Translations under genes and position numbers: made by a program
Notes under the pieces: generated by a model
Told to the model about the DNA's origin: nothing
The model's database searches: none
The model's input: the letters and a program-made list of their open reading frames with translations, nothing else
UHGV virus genome: UHGV-0134942
Strand: one strand, 5' to 3'
DNA from: a virus
Length of the DNA stretch: 34,876 nt
Shown: in pieces, positions 194 to 15,039 of the stretch
Layout of the letters: each line of letters starts with the position of its first letter
Numbering within the stretch: position 1 is the first letter of the stretch

Positions 194-349
194 TTACCTT
201 TCAGATTCGTAGGCTGTGAAGACAGTGACCTCCGTCTGGCCGGTTCGGATTCGTACCTCGCAGAGGTCTTTCCTCGTTACCAGTGCCGTCACAATGACGG
301 TTAAACAGATGACGATCAGAGCGATTAATATCGCTTTTTGCTGCTTCAT
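194..349 (-). CDS. hok: Hok/Gef-family type I toxin (51 aa), not in the supplied ORF track because it is under 60 aa
   Basis: Manual minus-strand translation gives MKQQKAILIALIVICLTVIVTALVTRKDLCEVRIRTGQTEVTVFTAYESER, which matches the Hok/Gef family (single TM helix, conserved RKDLCEV and TEVxVFTAYES motifs). AAGGAG Shine-Dalgarno lies 9 nt upstream of the ATG at 349. Confidence 0.8.
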   Translation of the reverse strand: MKQQKAILIALIVICLTVIVTALVTRKDLCEVRIRTGQTEVTVFTAYESER

Positions 350-407
350 AGCCTGCTTCTCCTTGACCTTTTGGTCGGTAAGAGGCTAATCTACGTATGC
401 TAAGCAT
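201..407 (-). CDS. Mok-like overlapping reading frame (modulator of killing) covering hok in another frame
   Basis: 68-aa ORF from the track overlaps the hok CDS out of frame and ends 7 nt downstream of the hok stop, as in hok/mok/sok loci. GAGG lies about 8 nt upstream of its ATG. The protein sequence itself is not diagnostic. Confidence 0.35.
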   Translation of the reverse strand: MLSIRRLASYRPKGQGEAGYEAAKSDINRSDRHLFNRHCDGTGNEERPLRGTNPNRPDGGHCLHSLRI

Positions 408-530
408 AGATATTGCCTCAGATTAATGTTAAGCGTCTTGCAGGACGCGTAATGTTATCTGGGGCTTTCTTCTATCTGCTTTTCGGGTAATGCCTGAAGC
501 AGATAGCCTCAAGCACCCGCAACGATTGTA

Positions 531-2665: not shown

Positions 2666-3331
2666 TTAACCTATTGCTACTGGTTTTAACAAACCAGCAT
2701 CAAGTAGCTTGCGAGTTAACCACTGCTGGCCTTTACCCGTTAATTGGGGCGTCAGCCGTATCTGGTAGCCATTTTCATCATCCAGCACCACTTCTTTCAC
2801 CGTGAAATACCCGGCGTTGATGTACTGTTGGCGCGGTACGTTTTTGCGCGCACCAAAAGCCATGAGAATGCCGTTCTGGCGCAACCATGAGAAAAGGGCG
2901 TTTTGCTTAAGTCCAACGACCTTTGCAAAGTTCCCGATCAGGATTCCATTAGCCGCTGATACCCGGTCGGCAAAATCGACTTTAGGGGCTGCGGCCACCA
3001 GCTGTTGTTCCAACTGCATTTTCTGTTCTGCTAACTCGGCAGCCAGGCGTAGAGCTTCTGGTAATGTTTGGGGGATCGATGGGGCAGGGGAGTTTGCCTG
3101 CTGTAATTCTTCCAGTTTGTCGATCAGCGAACGGCGGACCGCTTTTGACTCGCGCGCGGCAACTCGCAGGGCTTGTTTGTAGGTCATGGTTATAATATCT
3201 ATTTCTGCGCCGTTTTTTTGACCTACGAAAATTTCGTAGGTTTCTCCTTCAAGCTCATCCTTAACTCTGGCAATGAAATCATTGTTGCGAACTGGTTTTT
3301 CGCTACATAATTTCCGTGCCTCATTGACCAT
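2666..3331 (-). CDS. ant: Antirepressor (Ant-like, KilA-C-type C-terminal domain); frame runs open upstream to the IS1 boundary, so likely a 5'-truncated ant1 / Ant2-like remnant
   Basis: Track ORF 2666..3340; first ATG at 3331 (MVNEARKL...). Manual translation shows the same frame has no stop from 3332 to 3433, the base adjacent to IS1. C-terminal domain is paralogous to the kilA product. Confidence 0.6.
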   Translation of the reverse strand: MVNEARKLCSEKPVRNNDFIARVKDELEGETYEIFVGQKNGAEIDIITMTYKQALRVAARESKAVRRSLIDKLEELQQANSPAPSIPQTLPEALRLAAELAEQKMQLEQQLVAAAPKVDFADRVSAANGILIGNFAKVVGLKQNALFSWLRQNGILMAFGARKNVPRQQYINAGYFTVKEVVLDDENGYQIRLTPQLTGKGQQWLTRKLLDAGLLKPVAIG

Positions 3332-3488
3332 CTTCAACAATGTTTGGCTGTCGATTGTGTCTCCGGTGTTGGGGATGACATTCAGGGCTGGTGCTGGCGT
3401 AGCTGAAGCAACAGGTGCTGGTTTTTCAACATTGGTGATGCTGCCAACTTACTGATTTAGTGTATGATGGTGTTTTTGAGGTGCTCCA

Positions 3489-3764
3489 GTGGCTTCTGTT
3501 TCTATCAGCTGTCCCTCCTGTTCAGCTACTGACGGGGTGGTGCGTAACGGCAAAAGCACTGCCGGACATCAGCGCTATCTCTGCTCTCACTGCCGTAAAA
3601 CATGGCAACTGCAGTTCACTTACACCGCTTCTCAACCCGGTACGCACCAGAAAATCATTGATATGGCCATGAATGGCGTTGGATGCCGGGCAACCGCCCG
3701 CATTATGGGCGTTGGCCTCAACACGATTTTCCGCCATTTAAAAAACTCAGGCCGCAGTCGGTAA
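3489..3764 (+). CDS. insA: IS1 InsA (91 aa)
   Basis: Protein [43 protein letters not shown]... is the canonical IS1 InsA. Confidence 0.95.
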
Positions 3765-4186
3765 CCTCGCGCATACAGCCGGGCAGTGACGTCATCGTCT
3801 GCGCGGAAATGGACGAACAGTGGGGCTACGTCGGTGCTAAATCACGTCAGCGCTGGCTGTTTTACGCGTATGACAGGATACGGAGGACAGTTGTGGCGCA
3901 CGTTTTCGGTGAACGCACTCTGGCCACACTGGAGCGTCTTCTGAGCCTGCTGTCGGCCTTTGAGGTCGTGGTATGGATGACGGATGGCTGGCCGCTGTAT
4001 GAATCACGCCTGAAGGGAAAGCTGCACGTTATCAGCAAGCGTTACACTCAGCGCATTGAGCGACATAATCTGAATCTGAGACAACATCTGGCAAGGCTGG
4101 GACGGAAGTCGCTGTCGTTCTCAAAATCGGTGGAGCTGCATGACAAGGTCATCGGGCATTATCTGAACATAAAACACTATCAGTAA
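3683..4186 (+). CDS. insB: IS1 InsB reading frame (B'); the InsAB' transposase is made by a -1 frameshift from insA
   Basis: 167-aa ORF with the canonical IS1 InsB sequence (…[54 protein letters not shown]…). Confidence 0.9.
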
Positions 4187-4203
4187 GTTGGAGTCACTAC
4201 CTT

Positions 4204-5394
4204 GGATCTGAAGGTAAGGCAAATCTCGATAAGTTGGCTCCGTATTTTGCTGAACTAGAGAATAAATATGGTCTTCCAGAAGGCACTCTTTACGCGATTG
4301 CTGCAACTGAATCTGGTGGTAATCCGTATGCAAAATCCCAAACCGGTGCTCTGGGAATGTTTCAGTTCACGGGGATTGCTCGTGAAGAGACTGGCTTAGC
4401 TGAAGGTGAATCGTTTGATCCTGTGAAATCGGCAGAAGCTGCGGCTCTTCTCATGAGCAAGTATCTGAAGCAAGCCAATGGAGACTTAAACGAGGCCATC
4501 ACTGCATATAACGCTGGGTTTGGCACTATCAATAAGTGGAAAAAAGGCACAGGTGACTTATCGAAAGAAAACCGTGAGTACGCGATCAAGGTCAATACTC
4601 ATCGTGCTCGCTATTTAGGTGGTGAAATCTATACACCTGGAGCAGGAGCACAGGGTGGGGCGCAATATGGAGTGAGGGGACCACTGCCTGATAACGCTGT
4701 TATCGATCAGTCTACTGGCCTGGCGTTTACCCCTAGTGATAGCCCGTTTGAGAAAGGCGGTCTGGTAGACAAAATCGGCAATGCTGTTGGCGTTAACGAT
4801 CTGGTCAACAAATTCATGAATGGCCGGGGTATGCGTCGGGAAGTCGTTCAGGGAACGCTCGAAGAACGTGCACGAGGGAAGGGGACCGCAACAGCAGCTG
4901 GCAATGTGTATGTTGATACTCCGATGCCAGTTGAAGAGGCGCGTCCGGTGACCAGCAACTCAAGTTACTTTGACCAACTCGGCGCACAAATGGGGATTGA
5001 TGGACTATTCGATAAACTCCGCAACTCGCCGGGGATGCGGAAAAATAATGCGCCTGAACCAGCCTCCACGTCCCAGGTGACGACTGCCGCCAACGATTTG
5101 CAGCAACCAACCGGTCGTATGCAGATAGACGGACAGGTTATTAGTGACCTTGGTGGTTCCGGTGCCAAGCCGACAATGCAGTTGGCTGATAATACCGTTT
5201 CACTTGATGGTGAAACGAAGCGGCTGTTTGCGCAGATGACCTCATTACTTGCCAGGATTGAAGAGCACACCAAAGACTCGGCGAAAGGCCAGGGAACTGT
5301 CGTAAAGGTCAGCACGCCTCAGCCGGGCGTTATGCGCACGGTACCACTGTCAATTGATGATCCGTTGATGAATGACTACGCGAGAGTTGATTGA
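4204..5394 (+). pseudogene. sit: 5'-truncated sit-like structural injection transglycosylase (C-terminal about 396 codons, lytic transglycosylase domain)
   Basis: Reading frame is open from the first in-frame codon after IS1 (4204); the track only finds a TTG start at 4234. SLT-domain motifs ATESGGNPYAKSQTGALGMFQF and AYNAG are present. Followed by pmgA/bplA-like genes as in P1. Confidence 0.65.
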
Positions 5395-11500: not shown

Positions 11501-12560
11501 ACTCAATGTTACTGGCGGCATCAATGGTAGTTTGAACGGTAATGCTGCAACTGCTACAAAACTTCAGACTGCAAGAAAAATATCCGGTGTTCCATTTGAT
11601 GGTTCTACTGATATCACTTTAACCGCCGCGCATGTGGCTGCTTTTGCCAGAAGGGCAACGGATACATATGCCGATGCGGATGGTGGCGTTCCCTGGAATG
11701 CCGAATCAGGCGCTTACAATGTCACCCGCTCTGGCGACAGCTATATTCTGGTTAACTTCTATACCGGAGTCGGAAGTTGCCGGACATTGCAGATGAAGGC
11801 GCATTACAGAAATGGTGGTCTGTTCTACCGTTCTTCAAGAGACGGTTATGGTTTTGAAGAAGACTGGGCAGAAGTTTATACCTCGAAAAATCTTCCACCA
11901 GAAAGCTACCCAGTCGGCGCACCAATCCCGTGGCCATCAGATACCGTTCCGTCTGGTTATGCCCTGATGCAGGGGCAGACTTTTGACAAATCTGCTTACC
12001 CGAAACTTGCAGCCGCTTATCCGTCAGGCGTGATCCCTGATATGCGTGGCTGGACGATTAAGGGCAAACCTGCCAGTGGTCGTGCCGTATTGTCTCAGGA
12101 ACAGGACGGCATTAAATCGCACACCCACAGCGCCAGCGCATCCAGTACGGATTTGGGGACGAAAACCACATCGTCGTTTGATTACGGTACTAAACCAACG
12201 AATAACACAGGTGCACATACCCACAATGTATCTGGTACTGCAAATAGTGCTGGCGCACATACTCATACCGTTCCATTAAGGAGACCAAACAGTGGAGGTA
12301 TGAATTTCGACTGGCTTGATGGTTCATCAAGTGGCACGGTCGTGGGGAATGGAACAGTGCCTTCTTCTGGTGCACACACCCACTCAGTATCAGGCACTGC
12401 TGCAAGTGCAGGGGCGCATGCACATACAGTTGGTATTGGCGCTCATACGCACTCTGTTGCGATTGGTTCACATGGACATACCATCACCGTTAATGCTGCT
12501 GGTAACGCGGAAAACACCGTTAAAAACATCGCATTTAATTATATTGTGAGGCTTGCATAA
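8541..12560 (+). CDS. S: Tail fibre protein (1339 aa) with internal tandem repeats and a His-rich C-terminal tip
   Basis: Track ORF 8454..12560; the likely start is the ATG at 8541 ([15 protein letters not shown] Shine-Dalgarno upstream, just after the R stop). Two ~74-aa repeats ([26 protein letters not shown]…), at least five copies of a ~40-aa unit ([40 protein letters not shown]), and C-terminal GAHTH/HxH repeats. Confidence 0.85.
9300..9760 (+). repeat. Two ~222-bp in-frame tandem repeats inside the tail fibre gene (phage-fibre repeat)
   Basis: Protein repeats [63 protein letters not shown] and [63 protein letters not shown]. Confidence 0.7.
10006..10860 (+). repeat. Array of ~120-bp in-frame tandem repeats inside the tail fibre gene
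   Basis: Recurrent unit [10 protein letters not shown](Q/A/L)TART/NIxGVxFDGSANIxLPGVNxxGNQ(N/S)TT; a further copy lies near 11527-11625. Confidence 0.7.
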
Positions 12561-13177
12561 TGGCATTCAGAATGAGTGAACAATCACGTACAGTAAAAAT
12601 TTATAACCTGCTGGCCGGAACTAATGAGTTTATTGGTGAAGATGACGCATATATTCCACCTCATACAGGGCTGCCAGCTAATTCTACAGATATCGCCCCA
12701 CCGGAAATTCCTACTGGCTTTGTGGCAGTTTTCAACAGTGAAAATGAATCGTGGAATATTGTTGAAGACCATCGTGGTAAAACGGTCTATGAGGTGGCAT
12801 CGGGGGACGCGTTGTTTATTTCTGAACCCGGACCGCTACCAGAGAATGTCACCTGGTTGTCGCCAGCAGGGGAGTATCAGAAGTGGGACGGCGTATCCTG
12901 GGTGAAGGATGAGGAAGCAGAAAAACTGTTTCGGATACGGGAAGCGGAAGAGAAAAAGGCAAGGTTGATCCAGGAGGCAACAGATAACATCGCAATTCTG
13001 CAGGACGCAGTTAATCTTGAAATAGCAACAAACGAGGAAAATTCACAACTGGACTCCTGGAGAAAATACAGAGTATTAGTGAGTCGAATTGATACCAGTA
13101 CAGCTCCGGATATCGTATGGCCAGAGCTGATGAATCAGGGTTATGTGCGGGAGGACGAGCAGATAACTTCAGACTGA
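12560..13177 (+). CDS. U: Tail fibre assembly chaperone (Tfa/U-like, 205 aa)
   Basis: ATG overlaps the S stop (TAATG); size and position typical of tail fibre assembly proteins; conserved W-KYR-like C-terminal segment ([14 protein letters not shown]). Confidence 0.75.
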
Positions 13178-13704
13178 AATTTAGTGATGAATGTTGAATC
13201 ATCAGGAATATCATGCAATACCAATGCATGAGCACCTATTGTGACATTGTTTCCTATACGCACTTTGCCACCAAGAATGGTGGCATTACAACCAATGGTC
13301 ACATTATCTCCTATAACAATATCCATGTCATTAAATTCCCCGCGAAGTCCAATAGTTACTCCGGGCTTAATTGAACAATTTTCACCGATTGTGACTTTGT
13401 GAGCGATAACAACGCCATTGAGATAAGATATGTCAAACCCTTTCCCTATATTTACCGTTAAGGGAACGGTTACATTGTATTTGTCAAGAATGAAGCGTTC
13501 TATTTTCCCTGCAACCTTTCGCCTGTATCCGCCTTTATCAAAAAGATATTTTGATATGCGCCACCAAAATAAATAACGAACTCTTCTATGTTTTATTGCG
13601 CGAACAATTGCTTTTCGCCAAGAGAAAGGACGCTCGCTACCAATTACTTCATAGTGAATACAGTCTTTAAGTTCATTAATAGTCATATTTCTATTGTTCA
13701 GCAT
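13141..13704 (-). CDS. Hexapeptide-repeat (left-handed beta-helix) acetyltransferase, AT-rich; possible moron (187 aa)
   Basis: Imperfect hexapeptide repeats ([16 protein letters not shown]…[34 protein letters not shown]). Markedly lower GC than the flanking phage genes. Converges on U and overlaps its 3' end by 37 bp. Confidence 0.7.
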
Positions 13705-13769
13705 AATATAATAATGTGACCAATTATTATAATAACTTTAATGGATTATTTCTACTGATTATCCAGTGT

Positions 13770-14700
13770 GTCTGGCGGTTTTCGGTATTATCTGCCGGAA
13801 CCATGCCTCATCCAGCGGGTATTTGCTGCCTGGGTTGTCCGGTTTTTCGGTCACTCCCTCAGGCCTCCGATTCTGGTCACGGCGGGTTTGTTATTTTCCA
13901 GTGCGTCGGATGACCACTGCCGCAACTTCTGCACCATTTTTTGGGAGCGGGATTTCACTCCTACGCAACCTGCGCTTTTTGTGCAGCCTGTTTTGCGTGC
14001 TATCCCGGATTTTTGAGTTTCATTCTGCCTCCATGATCCTATCAGGGACGACACCAATCCACTTAAGCACGATGCCAAGACCATCAAGGAGCTGCGTCAG
14101 AGGCCCAGCACAATGTTCTGCTTGATCGGCATAGGGGGGAGCACAAGGGCTGCGCCCCTGCCACACCACCCGGCATGCGGGTCCGTACCGGGCTTCCTCG
14201 GCTTCTGACGCAATGTCCTGTCAAGAGTCATATCTTCTGGCTTTCCTTCTCGTTCGGCCCTTCGTCGGAGTCCTGACTACTACGGCCTCTGCTGACTTCT
14301 CGCTCCGTCTTACGACGTTGCCCTTTCAGGCATGAGGCGAGAACTCCCCAGGTAAGAACGCGATCCTTCCCCGCACAACCGTCGGATCTGCGCGACTTCG
14401 ACTTGACCACGAAAGCTTCGCAGTGATGTGCCTGCTCGCCTTGCTCCATCGCGCCTCATATCCGATTCTCGTTCATCGGCTCACGGGTTCATTCCGTGCT
14501 TCCTCCCCACGCCCGGTCGCCCTCACGCAGTTGCACTTCATTTCGCTCGCTGTGGTCAGCTCGCGGGAGGGCTTTCACCTCCAAGATCGCGCCCATGCTG
14601 GGCGCACACATCCTCCACGCTCTAAAGGACGTGGAGGATGTCAAGCAACATGACCGGTTGAGAAGTTACTTTGCATACCATTACCTCCTGACAACGTAGG
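13770..14700. other. ~0.9 kb GC-rich, strand-skewed block (pyrimidine-rich on +) without a convincing ORF; candidate structured RNA, long leader or decayed gene
   Basis: All six frames give only short overlapping Pro/Ser/Arg-rich ORFs of 60-120 aa. Contains perfect hairpins at 14589-14605, 14609-14640 and 14684-14703. Lies where P1 carries cin and the invertible C-segment. Confidence 0.4.
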
Positions 14701-14703
14701 AGG
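14684..14703 (+). promoter_or_regulatory. Hairpin pairing the lydA Shine-Dalgarno (AGGAGG) with an upstream CCUCCU
   Basis: CCTCCT(14684-14689), 8-nt loop, AGGAGG(14698-14703); GTG start of the holin-like gene at 14710. Confidence 0.4.
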
Positions 14704-14709
14704 GAACTT

Positions 14710-15039
14710 GTGCTTGACACACAGGAATTAGCTCCAGTTGCTATTGCGCTCCTGCTTTCAGTAATTGGTGGGATAGGCACGTTCCTGATGGATGTCCGAG
14801 ATGGTCGCCAGTCTGGCAATTTGTTGGGATTGGTTACGGAGATCTTTGTTGCAGTGACAGCTGGCGCGGTGGCGTACCTATTGGGGCAACACGAGGGCTG
14901 GGAGTTATCAATTACGTACTTAATGGTAACGATAGCCAGCAATAACGGTCATGAGGTGATTTCAGGGATGAAACGAGTGAATATCGATAGCATTCTGAAT
15001 GTTCTTACAAGTTTGGTGAAAAAGGGAGGTGGGAAATGA
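14710..15039 (+). CDS. lydA: Holin-like membrane protein (109 aa)
   Basis: GTG start with AGGAGG Shine-Dalgarno; hydrophobic helices (LAPVAIALLLSVIGGIGTFLM and EIFVAVTAGAVAYLLG); first gene of the hdf-darA operon, as P1 lydA. Name by synteny. Confidence 0.55.
   Translation: MLDTQELAPVAIALLLSVIGGIGTFLMDVRDGRQSGNLLGLVTEIFVAVTAGAVAYLLGQHEGWELSITYLMVTIASNNGHEVISGMKRVNIDSILNVLTSLVKKGGGK

What the first reader, a model, noticed from the sequence alone, without database searches (positions are those of the whole stretch)
13770..14700. About 0.9 kb GC-rich, strand-skewed block with no convincing ORF between the acetyltransferase and lydA
The plus strand is markedly pyrimidine-rich, and every frame is broken into short overlapping Pro/Ser/Arg-rich ORFs, the signature of GC-rich non-coding DNA or a decayed gene. 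It contains perfect stem-loops: an 11-bp stem CATCCTCCACG / CGTGGAGGATG (14609-14640), a 7-bp stem GCGCCCA / TGGGCGC (14589-14605), and the SD-containing hairpin at 14684-14703. It could be a structured ncRNA, an unusually long structured leader of the Dar operon, or the 5' region of the acetyltransferase transcript. I could not match it to cin or tail fibre remnants by translation.
Basis: seen in the sequence. Interest (0 to 1): 0.6.

Follow-up and report, generated by a model that had tools for sequence, protein, structure and literature searches.

The report
Dead mini-intron plus phage gene scrap
The unannotated 0.9-kb block is debris from two mobile elements on the opposite strand, a 483-base group II intron that has lost its protein gene and a frameshifted piece of a phage tail tape-measure gene, so it is ordinary genomic junk and not a new RNA or a leader of the Dar operon.

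Summary
In detail: GC-rich, strand-skewed, no real ORF, and all three stem-loops sit at the stated coordinates. The block is a mosaic that reads on the minus strand.

- **14607-14125:** a 483-nt ORF-less class C (IIC) group II intron. Rfam D1-D4 models hit at 96.9 and 46.8 bits. It is 97.7% identical to a full-length E. coli intron, minus a 1350-nt deletion between two GCCCGG repeats. That deletion removed the reverse transcriptase/maturase gene and the first 3 nt of catalytic domain V.
- **Proof of insertion:** two related P1-like plasmids carry the exact empty site.
- **The 11-bp stem-loop:** it is the intron's homing hairpin, part of a 17-bp-arm palindrome that resembles the IS609 right end. 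EBS1 ACAUC pairs with IBS1 GAUGU.
- **The 7-bp stem:** intron nt 3-19.
- **13775-14124:** a frameshifted fragment of a P2-like tail tape-measure gene (74.5% nucleotide identity).
- **The SD hairpin and the LPdar promoter:** unchanged P1 backbone.

Domain V is identical in intact relatives from four genera but damaged here. Every copy of the deletion junction sits at this one locus. The intron diverges at the same rate as the neighbouring pseudogene. It is most likely an inert fossil. Interest is low.

The parts
14125..14607 (-). ORF-less (delta-ORF) class C group II intron, 483 nt, from 5'-GUGCG to GCCGAU-3'. The boundary is ambiguous by 1 nt because T14608 equals T14125.
   Evidence: Two plasmids carry the empty site. 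Rfam hits. It is 97.7% identical (471/482) to the retained parts of full-length intron L007 2480-4311.
14589..14607 (-). Intron 5' end: GUGCG plus the first domain I hairpin, GCGCCCA-GCA-UGGGCGC.
   Evidence: Sequence. These 19 nt are identical in L007, L001 and L023, and L024 differs at 1 nt in the hairpin loop.
14356..14526 (-). Core of domain I, matching Rfam RF02001 group-II-D1D4-3.
   Evidence: 96.9 bits, E 7.5e-20, full model 1-170. The full-length parent scores 103.6 bits.
14425..14429 (-). EBS1 (5'-ACAUC) in a terminal loop of domain I.
   Evidence: Complementary to the last 5 nt of the 5' exon. Four different EBS1/IBS1 pairs co-vary across five introns.
14257..14338 (-). Segment matching Rfam RF01998 group-II-D1D4-1, downstream of the domain I core.
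   Evidence: 46.8 bits, E 1.1e-6, the same score as the parent.
14190..14231 (-). Domain IV remnant: the first 14 codons of the intron-encoded protein (MTLDRTLRQKPRKP).
   Evidence: Matches the start of L007 ltrA, MTPDRTLRQKPGKPG.
14188..14193 (-). GCCCGG microhomology at the junction of the 1350-nt deletion.
   Evidence: The parent carries GCCCGG at 2894 (IEP codons 13-15) and at 4244 (5' strand of domain V). The alignment jumps from 2893 to 4244.
14165..14196 (-). Damaged hybrid domain V: GAAGCCCGGUACGGACCCGCAUGCCGGGUGGU.
   Evidence: The intact form, ACCGCCCGGUGCGGACCCGCAUGCCGGGUGGU, is identical in four introns from four genera. The window copy differs at 4 nt. MFE is -13.9 against -22.1 kcal/mol and the 2-nt bulge is lost.
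14125..14164 (-). Domain VI with the candidate branch-point A at 14132, 8 nt from the 3' end.
   Evidence: Alignment with intact relatives. The MFE fold puts the A in an internal loop but the centroid structure keeps only the outer helix, so the fold is not well determined. The branch-point assignment is inferred.
14608..14646 (-). 5' part of the homing-site palindrome: left arm 14646-14630, loop 14629-14620, right arm 14619-14608. IBS1 (GAUGU) is 14612-14608.
   Evidence: The empty sites show 17-bp perfect arms. Folded as RNA: -33.7 kcal/mol, z = -9.2.
14120..14124 (-). Last 5 nt (CAAGC) of the palindrome's right arm, split off by the intron. The first three (CAA) complete the TCAA end motif seen at the IS609 right end.
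   Evidence: Empty-site alignment. The intact IS609 right end reads ...GGAGGATGTCAA.
13775..14124 (-). Frameshifted fragment of a P2-like phage tail tape-measure gene, about aa 713-840 of a 1335-aa protein.
   Evidence: blastn 74.5% identity over 99% of its length to annotated tape-measure genes in 10 E. coli chromosomes. tblastn recovers it only across several frames, with stops. Frameshifting indels separate it from L003 and L008.
14663..14681 (+). P1 late promoter LPdar (-22 box AAGTTACTT, -10 TACCAT). Backbone, not part of the block.
   Evidence: Coordinates transferred from the P1 annotation. The sequence is identical.
14684..14703 (+). SD-containing hairpin upstream of lydA. P1 backbone.
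   Evidence: Identical in P1 (L006 2544-2563).
13726..13754 (-). Sigma-70-like promoter candidate for the acetyltransferase gene (TAGAAA-17-TATAAT).
   Evidence: Consensus scan, 10 of 12 matches. The number of sites found does not exceed shuffles, so this is weak evidence.

Best explanation
The block is a mosaic of decayed mobile DNA that reads on the minus strand, wedged between the tail-fibre/acetyltransferase cassette and the P1 late promoter LPdar.

Its history, as inferred:
1. This P1-like lineage lost cin and lydC. In their place it carries a 350-bp frameshifted scrap of a P2-like tail tape-measure gene, capped by a 17-bp-arm palindrome that resembles the right end of IS609.
2. A class C (IIC) group II intron retrohomed into that hairpin. 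It recognised the stem-loop and paired EBS1 (ACAUC) with the last 5 nt of the 5' exon (GAUGU). It inserted at GGAUGU|CAA, the same position its full-length relative occupies in a real IS609 right end.
3. A 1350-nt deletion between two GCCCGG repeats then removed the reverse transcriptase/maturase gene from codon 15 onward, together with the first 3 nt of catalytic domain V. That left a 483-nt ORF-less intron with intact ends, near-intact domains I-III and a crippled domain V.
4. This form has since been inherited vertically with the plasmid and is drifting neutrally.

Shown here: the identity of each piece, the insertion, the deletion and the restriction to a single locus. Inferred: the order of events, and that the intron no longer splices or moves.
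For: **Intron identity**
- Rfam RF02001 at 96.9 bits and RF01998 at 46.8 bits, both on the minus strand and above gathering scores.
- 97.7% identity to the retained parts of full-length intron L007, whose ltrA has RVT_1 and GIIM domains and no HNH domain.

**Class C**
- The parent protein's best solved relatives are the group IIC RTs: 6ar1 at 433 bits, then 7uim and 5hhj/5hhl. The IIB protein scores 149 bits and LtrA 134.
- Relatives L001 and L023 sit directly after a GC-rich stem followed by a T-rich tract, the form of an intrinsic terminator.
- The ribozyme is only about 460 nt.

**Insertion**
- Two P1-like plasmids, CP054337.1 and NZ_CP033848.1, carry the uninterrupted palindrome and lack exactly these 483 nt.

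**Target recognition**
- EBS1/IBS1 are complementary in all five introns, through four different sequence pairs.
- The intact IS609 right end reads ...CGTGGAGGATGTCAA|. L007 is inserted at GGATGT|CAA.

**Deletion**
- The parent has GCCCGG at 2894 and at 4244, and the alignment jumps between them.

**Loss of function**
- The 32-nt domain V is identical in E. coli, Leclercia, Ralstonia and Sinorhizobium introns whose domain I differs by about 20% from the window copy. The window copy differs at 4 nt.
- It loses the two basal pairs next to the catalytic triad. The triad changes from CGC to AGC, with the A opposite a G, and one upper-helix pair is lost. The predicted 2-nt bulge disappears and stability falls from -22.1 to -13.9 kcal/mol.

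**No spread**
- All 35 plasmid copies and all 4 IMG/VR copies of the junction 26-mer sit at this same locus. No GTDB representative genome has it.
- Only 3 of 5426 E. coli genomes carry a near-full-length parent that could supply the protein.

**Neutral drift**
- The intron diverges 1.1-2.3% between copies, and L009-L011 carry a 6-nt deletion in domain I. The adjacent pseudogene diverges 1.7-2.3%. The adjacent P1 backbone shows 0 changes in 74 nt.

**Tape-measure fragment**
-.
Against: - No expression or splicing data exist, so inertness is inferred from sequence alone.
- Domains I-III, both splice sites, EBS1/IBS1 and domain VI are well preserved. The new triad, AGC, is the consensus in IIA and IIB introns, so weak activity with a protein supplied in trans cannot be excluded.
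- The divergence comparison rests on few substitutions (4-8 per segment).
- Rfam's domain V/VI model (RF00029) does not detect domain V even in the intact relatives. My domain V and VI assignments therefore rest on alignment, folding and general knowledge of group II introns, not on a curated model.
- EBS3/IBS3 could not be located.
- Whether the palindrome is a true IS609-family remnant or an independent REP-like unit is unresolved.
Confidence: 0.85

Rival explanations
1. The 483-nt element is a working non-autonomous mini-intron. It still splices, and perhaps retrohomes, when a related IIC reverse transcriptase/maturase is supplied in trans.
For: Both splice sites, EBS1/IBS1 pairing, domains I-III (Rfam scores close to the parent's) and domain VI are preserved. 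The deletion removed almost exactly the ORF.
Against: Domain V is invariant in intact relatives but is damaged at 4 nt here, with loss of the predicted bulge. Every copy of the junction sits at one locus. Some copies carry a 6-nt deletion in domain I. A full-length parent is found in only 3 of 5426 E. coli genomes.
Confidence: 0.07
2. The block is a structured leader or regulatory ncRNA of the Dar (lydA) operon, or the 5' UTR of the acetyltransferase gene.
For: The block lies between the two genes and contains strong hairpins.
Against: LPdar lies downstream of the block on the plus strand, so Dar transcripts start after it. The ribozyme reads on the minus strand. Two related plasmids lack the intron altogether. 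P1 and other prophages that carry the same acetyltransferase cassette lack the whole block. A promoter-like site for the acetyltransferase lies downstream of the block.
Confidence: 0.03
3. The palindrome, with or without the intron, has been co-opted as a bidirectional terminator or insulator between the divergent acetyltransferase and late Dar units.
For: The uninterrupted palindrome is very stable (-33.7 kcal/mol). It sits 17 nt upstream of the LPdar -22 box and is retained in both the filled and the empty alleles.
Against: No T-run follows it on either strand, and the terminator scan does not report it. The intron splits its 3' arm in most copies with no sign of counter-selection. Near-identical 40-nt units occur as dispersed repeats in an unrelated genome, which points to a mobile origin.
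Confidence: 0.05

Closest known systems
Bacterial class C (IIC) group II introns, such as B.h.I1, O.i.I1, GsI-IIC and the Eubacterium rectale intron
   Same: Small ribozyme. Insertion next to a DNA stem-loop. A short EBS1/IBS1 pairing. The triad in intact domain V is CGC. The parent's protein has RT and maturase domains, lacks an endonuclease domain, and is closest to GsI-IIC RT. The class behaviour is described in PMC1702495 and PMC3522654.
   Different: This copy has lost the protein gene and part of domain V. Its target is an IS609-right-end-like palindrome with no T-run, not a Rho-independent terminator. The insertion point lies inside the 3' arm of the long palindrome, not after it. I could not map the family to a name in the Zimmerly nomenclature.
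Full-length E. coli intron in strain MFDS1022581 (NZ_CP169399.1, locus L007 2480-4311; ltrA WP_000186915.1)
   Same: 97.7% identity over the retained 482 nt. Same EBS1, same GGATGT|CAA insertion point, same 5' and 3' ends.
   Different: That copy is 1832 nt with an intact 456-aa protein gene and an intact domain V, and it sits in the right end of a real IS609 copy.
Fragmentary group II introns on Enterobacterial plasmids and islands (survey by Leclercq and Cordaux 2012, PMC3522654)
   Same: That survey counted 111 intron fragments (55 distinct copies) in 90 genomes. For the fragments it could evaluate, it suggested they were inactivated before they could proliferate or were acquired already inactivated on large mobile elements, which fits this case. 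A sister derivative with a different, larger deletion sits just after ccdB on IncFIB plasmids (L004).
   Different: This copy keeps both intron ends precisely, so it looks like an ORF-less intron and not a truncated fragment. It resides in a P1-like phage-plasmid.
IS609 (IS200/IS605 family) right-end hairpin, and REP-like palindromic units
   Same: 28 nt of the palindrome match the IS609 right end at 93%, including the terminal TCAA. The 40-nt unit TTGACATCCTCCACG-N10-CGTGGAGGATGTCAA occurs four times with unrelated flanks in an Oxalobacter MAG.
   Different: No IS body (tnpA or tnpB) adjoins it in the window. The stem here is perfect, whereas the IS609 hairpin is imperfect.

Membership tests
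Group II intron (ribozyme) | Conserved domain I-IV sequence and secondary structure | tested here: met
   RF02001 at 96.9 bits (gathering score 32) and RF01998 at 46.8 bits (gathering score 35), both full-length model matches on the minus strand.
Group II intron (ribozyme) | 5' GUGYG and 3' AY boundaries, confirmed by an intron-less allele | tested here: met
   GUGCG...GCCGAU. Two empty-site plasmids lack exactly these 483 nt.
Group II intron (ribozyme) | Intact catalytic domain V (two helices, 2-nt bulge, paired triad) | tested here: not met
   The copy differs at 4 nt from a 32-nt domain V that is invariant in four intact relatives. Two basal pairs and one upper pair are lost, and the bulge is absent from the MFE structure. 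The element is therefore filed as a degenerate derivative and not as a functional ribozyme.
Group II intron (ribozyme) | Domain VI with a bulged branch-point A 7-8 nt from the 3' end | tested here: inconclusive
   A14132 lies 8 nt from the 3' end, in an internal loop of the predicted helix. The fold's centroid is weak and no covariance model supports it.
Group II intron (ribozyme) | Self-splicing or protein-assisted splicing | not testable with these tools
   Needs RT-PCR, RNA-seq or in vitro splicing.
Mobile group II intron (retroelement) | Reverse transcriptase/maturase ORF in domain IV | tested here: not met
   Only the first 14 codons remain (14231-14190). 1350 nt are deleted relative to the parent. 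No such ORF occurs elsewhere in the window.
Bacterial class C (IIC) introns | Protein of the class C lineage, without an endonuclease domain | tested here: met
   Tested on the parent (L007): RVT_1 and GIIM only. Best solved relatives are the IIC RTs at 433, 313 and 267 bits, against 149 for IIB and 134 for IIA.
Bacterial class C (IIC) introns | Insertion downstream of a terminator or other DNA stem-loop | tested here: met
   In the window the intron begins 1 nt after the 11-bp stem, though inside the longer 17-bp palindrome. Relatives L001 and L023 follow a GC-rich stem plus a T-rich tract.
Bacterial class C (IIC) introns | Short EBS1/IBS1 pairing | tested here: met
   ACAUC with GAUGU. Four distinct complementary pairs across five introns.
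Bacterial class C (IIC) introns | EBS3/IBS3 pairing and absence of EBS2 | tested here: inconclusive
   No alignment column co-varies with the first 3'-exon base. EBS2 was not examined.
IS200/IS605-family right end (IS609) | Subterminal hairpin followed by the TCAA end, adjoining a tnpA/tnpB body | tested here: inconclusive
   The hairpin and TCAA match at 93% over 28 nt. No IS body is present, and the rest of the block shows no similarity to IS609.
Phage tail tape-measure protein gene | Continuous reading frame homologous to tape-measure proteins | tested here: not met
   Homology is clear (74.5% nucleotide identity over 99% of the segment). It is split over several frames with stops in both the window and L003, so this is a pseudogene fragment.

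The most novel reading that the evidence does not exclude
The 483-nt element might be a naturally occurring non-autonomous mini group IIC intron. On this reading it still splices, or is mobilised, with a protein supplied in trans despite its altered domain V (AGC triad), and it rides in an infectious P1-like phage-plasmid.

A related point from the comparison loci is that this intron family homes into the right-end hairpin of IS609-type elements, 3 nt before the transposon end. In IS200/IS605 elements that position lies between the guide-RNA scaffold and its guide. This would create a conflict or dependency between an intron and a TnpB transposon. I found no paper in the searched library that mentions both group II introns and IS609.
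Probability: 0.06. Interest if true: 0.55.

Novelty: new member of a known kind. Interest (0 to 1): 0.25.

Why it matters
**Annotation.** About 35 sequenced P1-like plasmids, several integrated copies and four IMG/VR contigs carry this 1-kb gap with nothing annotated in it. It can now be labelled as a delta-ORF class C group II intron plus a tape-measure pseudogene. That stops it being mistaken for a regulatory RNA of the Dar anti-restriction operon.

**Lineage marker.** The filled and empty alleles distinguish sub-lineages of P1-like phage-plasmids.

**Mechanism of decay.** The element is a clean natural example of how a mobile intron dies. A 6-nt microhomology deletion removed the protein gene and clipped the catalytic domain.

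**Side observation.** The intron's target is an IS609-type right-end hairpin. This could interest people who work on TnpB guide RNAs, but it rests on loci outside the window.

Tried and rejected
- **Rfam domain V/VI model (RF00029).** No hit at E <= 10 in the window or in intact relatives. I assigned domain V and VI from alignment and folding instead.
- **Whole-intron MFE fold.** Not informative: z = -1.5.
- **Coding potential of the spacer.** I considered a plus-strand ORF running into lydA (…NVLLDILHALKDVEDVKQ…). I rejected it because the window and L003 differ by frameshifts and the segment is a minus-strand tape-measure fragment.
- **Spacer as an IS609-derived non-autonomous element.** No similarity to the IS609 body or left end.
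- **Spacer searches in plasmids and phages.** The plasmid search found only the same locus and the phage search found nothing. Only the distant-mode search of E. coli genomes revealed the tape-measure homology.
- **Other insertion sites of the deletion junction.** None found.
- **EBS3.** Not found.
- **Literature.** No paper in the library mentions both 'group II intron' and 'IS609'. No paper describes an intron at this P1 locus. The supplements of PMC3522654 do not mention IS609, ccdB or sopA. I could not assign a Zimmerly-database name.
- **IS009 Rfam hit at 13000-13101.** 28.8 bits against a gathering score of 117. It lies inside the U gene, and I dismissed it as chance.

Full report
**1. 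The observation**

- Between 13850 and 14600 the GC fraction is 0.54-0.60, against 0.37-0.48 on either side. GC skew and AT skew are both negative, so the plus strand is pyrimidine-rich.
- All six frames hold only short overlapping ORFs, the longest 119 aa.
- The three stem-loops are at the stated coordinates. The 11-bp one folds far better than shuffled sequence: z = -6.9, and 0 of 200 shuffles fold as well.
- The block is also a discrete unit. Homology to P1 begins at 14643. Homology to the acetyltransferase cassette in many unrelated prophage contigs stops at 13774.
- In RefSeq the 1,023 bp between the acetyltransferase and holin genes of an identical plasmid carry no feature.

**2. What the right-hand 483 nt are**

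Rfam finds two group II intron models on the minus strand, both above their gathering scores. They are group-II-D1D4-3 at 14526-14356 (96.9 bits, E 7.5e-20) and group-II-D1D4-1 at 14338-14257 (46.8 bits).

Similarity searches split the block into pieces.
- The piece starting at GTGCG (14607) matches introns in Leclercia, Vibrio, Pandoraea and Burkholderia at about 80% identity.
- A short piece ending at 14125 matches Sinorhizobium and Ralstonia at 85-91%.
- The remainder matches only P1-like plasmids.

Two P1-like plasmids, CP054337.1 and NZ_CP033848.1, carry the same locus without the insert. There the sequence runs ...CGTGGAGGATGT|CAAGCAGAAC... In the window, 483 nt (GTGCGCCCAGC...CCTATGCCGAT, 14607 down to 14125) sit at the bar, with a 1-nt ambiguity. 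This is the standard proof of an intron or mobile-element insertion.

**3. Parent, class and target**

A full-length relative lies in the chromosome of E. coli MFDS1022581 (L007 2480-4311, 1832 nt). It has an annotated ltrA of 456 aa.
- The window copy is 97.7% identical to it over the 482 nt that both share.
- The ltrA product has RVT_1 and GIIM domains and no endonuclease domain.
- Its closest solved relatives are the group IIC enzymes: GsI-IIC RT 6ar1 at 433 bits, then 7uim and 5hhj/5hhl. A IIB protein scores 149 bits and LtrA 134.
- The relatives in Leclercia (L001) and Ralstonia (L023) sit immediately after a GC-rich stem followed by a T-rich tract, the form of an intrinsic terminator. 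That is the hallmark of class C introns (PMC1702495, PMC3522654).

A terminal loop in domain I carries ACAUC (14429-14425), complementary to the last five bases of the 5' exon, GAUGU (14612-14608). In the four relatives the same loop reads ACAUC, AUAAAA, CCAAG and CAUGA. In each case it is complementary to that intron's own 5' exon. That gives four co-varying EBS1/IBS1 pairs across the five introns. I could not locate EBS3.

**4. The 11-bp stem-loop**

In L007 the intron sits 3 nt before the end of an IS609 copy, at GGAGGATGT|CAA, just downstream of its tnpB/insQ gene. An uninterrupted IS609 right end in BL21 reads ...gggatccacgtccttcagggcgtggaggatgtcaa|.

The window's hairpin matches this over 28 nt at 93%, including the TCAA end. 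Its stem is perfect, however. In the empty alleles the arms are 17 bp long: GCTTGACATCCTCCACG / CGTGGAGGATGTCAAGC. Folded as RNA this gives -33.7 kcal/mol and z = -9.2.

The 40-nt core (TTGACATCCTCCACG-N10-CGTGGAGGATGTCAA) occurs four times with unrelated flanks in an Oxalobacter MAG. It therefore behaves like a small dispersed palindromic repeat. The last 5 nt of its right arm (CAAGC) are now at 14124-14120.

**5. How the intron lost its gene**

The parent has GCCCGG at 2894 (codons 13-15 of the protein) and again at 4244 (the 5' strand of domain V). The window sequence follows the parent to 2893 and resumes at 4244. A 1350-nt deletion between the two 6-nt repeats therefore removed the protein gene from codon 15, the rest of domain IV and the first 3 nt of domain V.
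- The first 14 codons survive at 14231-14190.
- A spurious 44-aa ORF (14231-14097) runs from them through domains V and VI into the flank.

**6. Is it still a ribozyme?**

Domains I-III score almost as well as in the parent: 96.9 against 103.6 bits, and 46.8 against 46.8. Domain VI and both splice sites are present.

Domain V is the weak point. The 32-nt sequence ACCGCCCGGUGCGGACCCGCAUGCCGGGUGGU is identical in the intact introns of E. coli, Leclercia, Ralstonia and Sinorhizobium. It folds into the expected shape: a 10-bp lower helix with a G-U wobble in a CGC triad, a 2-nt bulge on the 3' strand, and a short capped upper helix, at -22.1 kcal/mol.

The window copy reads GAAGCCCGGUACGG... and is damaged in three ways.
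- The two basal pairs next to the triad are lost.
- The first triad base is now an A opposite a G.
- A G-to-A change breaks an upper-helix pair.

The predicted fold loses the bulge and drops to -13.9 kcal/mol. From established knowledge of group II introns, the domain V triad and bulge form the catalytic metal-binding site. I infer from this that activity is lost or severely reduced. This has not been shown.

**7. No sign of spread or selection**
- All 35 plasmid records that hold most of the block hold it at this locus.
- A 26-mer specific to the deletion junction finds four IMG/VR contigs, all with identical flanks, and no GTDB representative genome.
- Only 3 of 5426 complete E. coli genomes hold a near-full-length parent that could supply the protein.
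- Between filled copies the intron differs by 1.1-2.3%, and three copies also carry a 6-nt deletion in domain I. The adjacent pseudogene differs by 1.7-2.3%. The adjacent P1 backbone shows 0 changes in 74 nt. The numbers are small but consistent with neutral drift.

**8. The left-hand 350 nt**

Segment 13775-14124 has no match in the phage collection, and in the plasmid collection it matches only the same locus. In E. coli chromosomes it matches annotated phage tail tape-measure genes at about 74.5% identity over 99% of its length.

In the P2-like tail gene cluster of strain AR_0085 the match falls inside a 1335-aa tape-measure gene, at about residues 713-840, in the orientation of the window's minus strand. 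tblastn recovers the similarity only by switching among frames and reading through stops, in both the window and the empty-site plasmid. The two alleles also differ by indels of 1 and 3 nt. It is a decayed gene fragment.

**9. The remainder**

From 14643 rightwards the sequence is P1 backbone.
- The late promoter LPdar (AAGTTACTT ... TACCAT) is at 14663-14681.
- The SD hairpin is at 14684-14703.
- lydA starts at 14710.

All three are identical to P1. Compared with P1, this lineage lacks cin and lydC.

**10. Verdict**

The block is a mosaic of dead mobile DNA. It consists of an IS609-right-end-like palindrome, a class C group II intron that homed into it and then lost its gene and part of its catalytic core, and a tape-measure pseudogene.

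The element is an unannotated new member of a well-known kind. Interest is low. The remaining open questions are whether any residual splicing persists and whether this intron family's preference for IS609-type right ends has consequences for those transposons.

Noticed in passing
L007 2440-4320 (E. coli MFDS1022581 chromosome, NZ_CP169399.1): The full-length parent intron is inserted 3 nt before the TCAA end of an IS609 copy, 40 nt downstream of the tnpB/insQ stop codon. From general knowledge of IS200/IS605 elements, that position lies between the TnpB guide-RNA scaffold and its guide. The intron would therefore separate the two unless it is spliced out. I found no paper in the library mentioning both group II introns and IS609.
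   Followed up: partly
L019 6000-6039, L020 4675-4714, L021 4735-4774, L022 7688-7727 (Oxalobacter MAG CAZRQR01): A 40-nt perfect palindrome, nearly identical to the window's homing hairpin, occurs at four loci with unrelated flanks. It looks like a REP-like or solo IS200/IS605-end repeat shared between distant hosts.
   Followed up: partly
L004 3503-3822 (E. coli IncFIB plasmid p503829_52): A sister remnant of the same intron family carries a different, larger internal deletion, from mid domain I to the end of the protein gene. It sits 7 nt after what I read, from memory of the CcdB C-terminus, as the ccdB stop codon. It is preceded by the same CATCCTCCACG hairpin arm, and about nine similar plasmid hits were listed.
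   Followed up: partly
L001 3002-5260 (Leclercia plasmid pIMP-Z96-1): Two class C introns lie in tandem. The second begins 2 nt after the 3' end of the first, as if the first intron's 3' end had served as the homing site.
   Followed up: no
L002 3001-4400 (E. coli pAA-type plasmid CP056614.1): A 5'-truncated copy of the same intron (96% identity) retains the start of the protein gene. It lies next to the aggregative adherence fimbria genes aafA/aafD and appears to be cut off by an IS66 element.
   Followed up: no
window 344-518 (-): The Rfam sok antitoxin RNA of a hok/sok-type system scores 114 bits, well above its gathering score.
   Followed up: no
window 12560-14710: This P1-like lineage has no invertible C segment, no cin and no lydC. 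The tail-fibre assembly gene U is followed directly by a convergent hexapeptide-repeat acetyltransferase (13141-13704, minus strand). The same U-plus-acetyltransferase cassette, at 85-95% identity, occurs in many smaller non-P1 prophage contigs.
   Followed up: partly
window 14097-14231 (-): A 44-aa ORF (MTLDRTLRQKPRKPGTDPHAG...) is a chimera. It runs from the first 14 codons of the intron protein through domains V and VI into the tape-measure fragment. One GenBank record annotates hypothetical proteins in this region (AP027478.1).
   Followed up: yes
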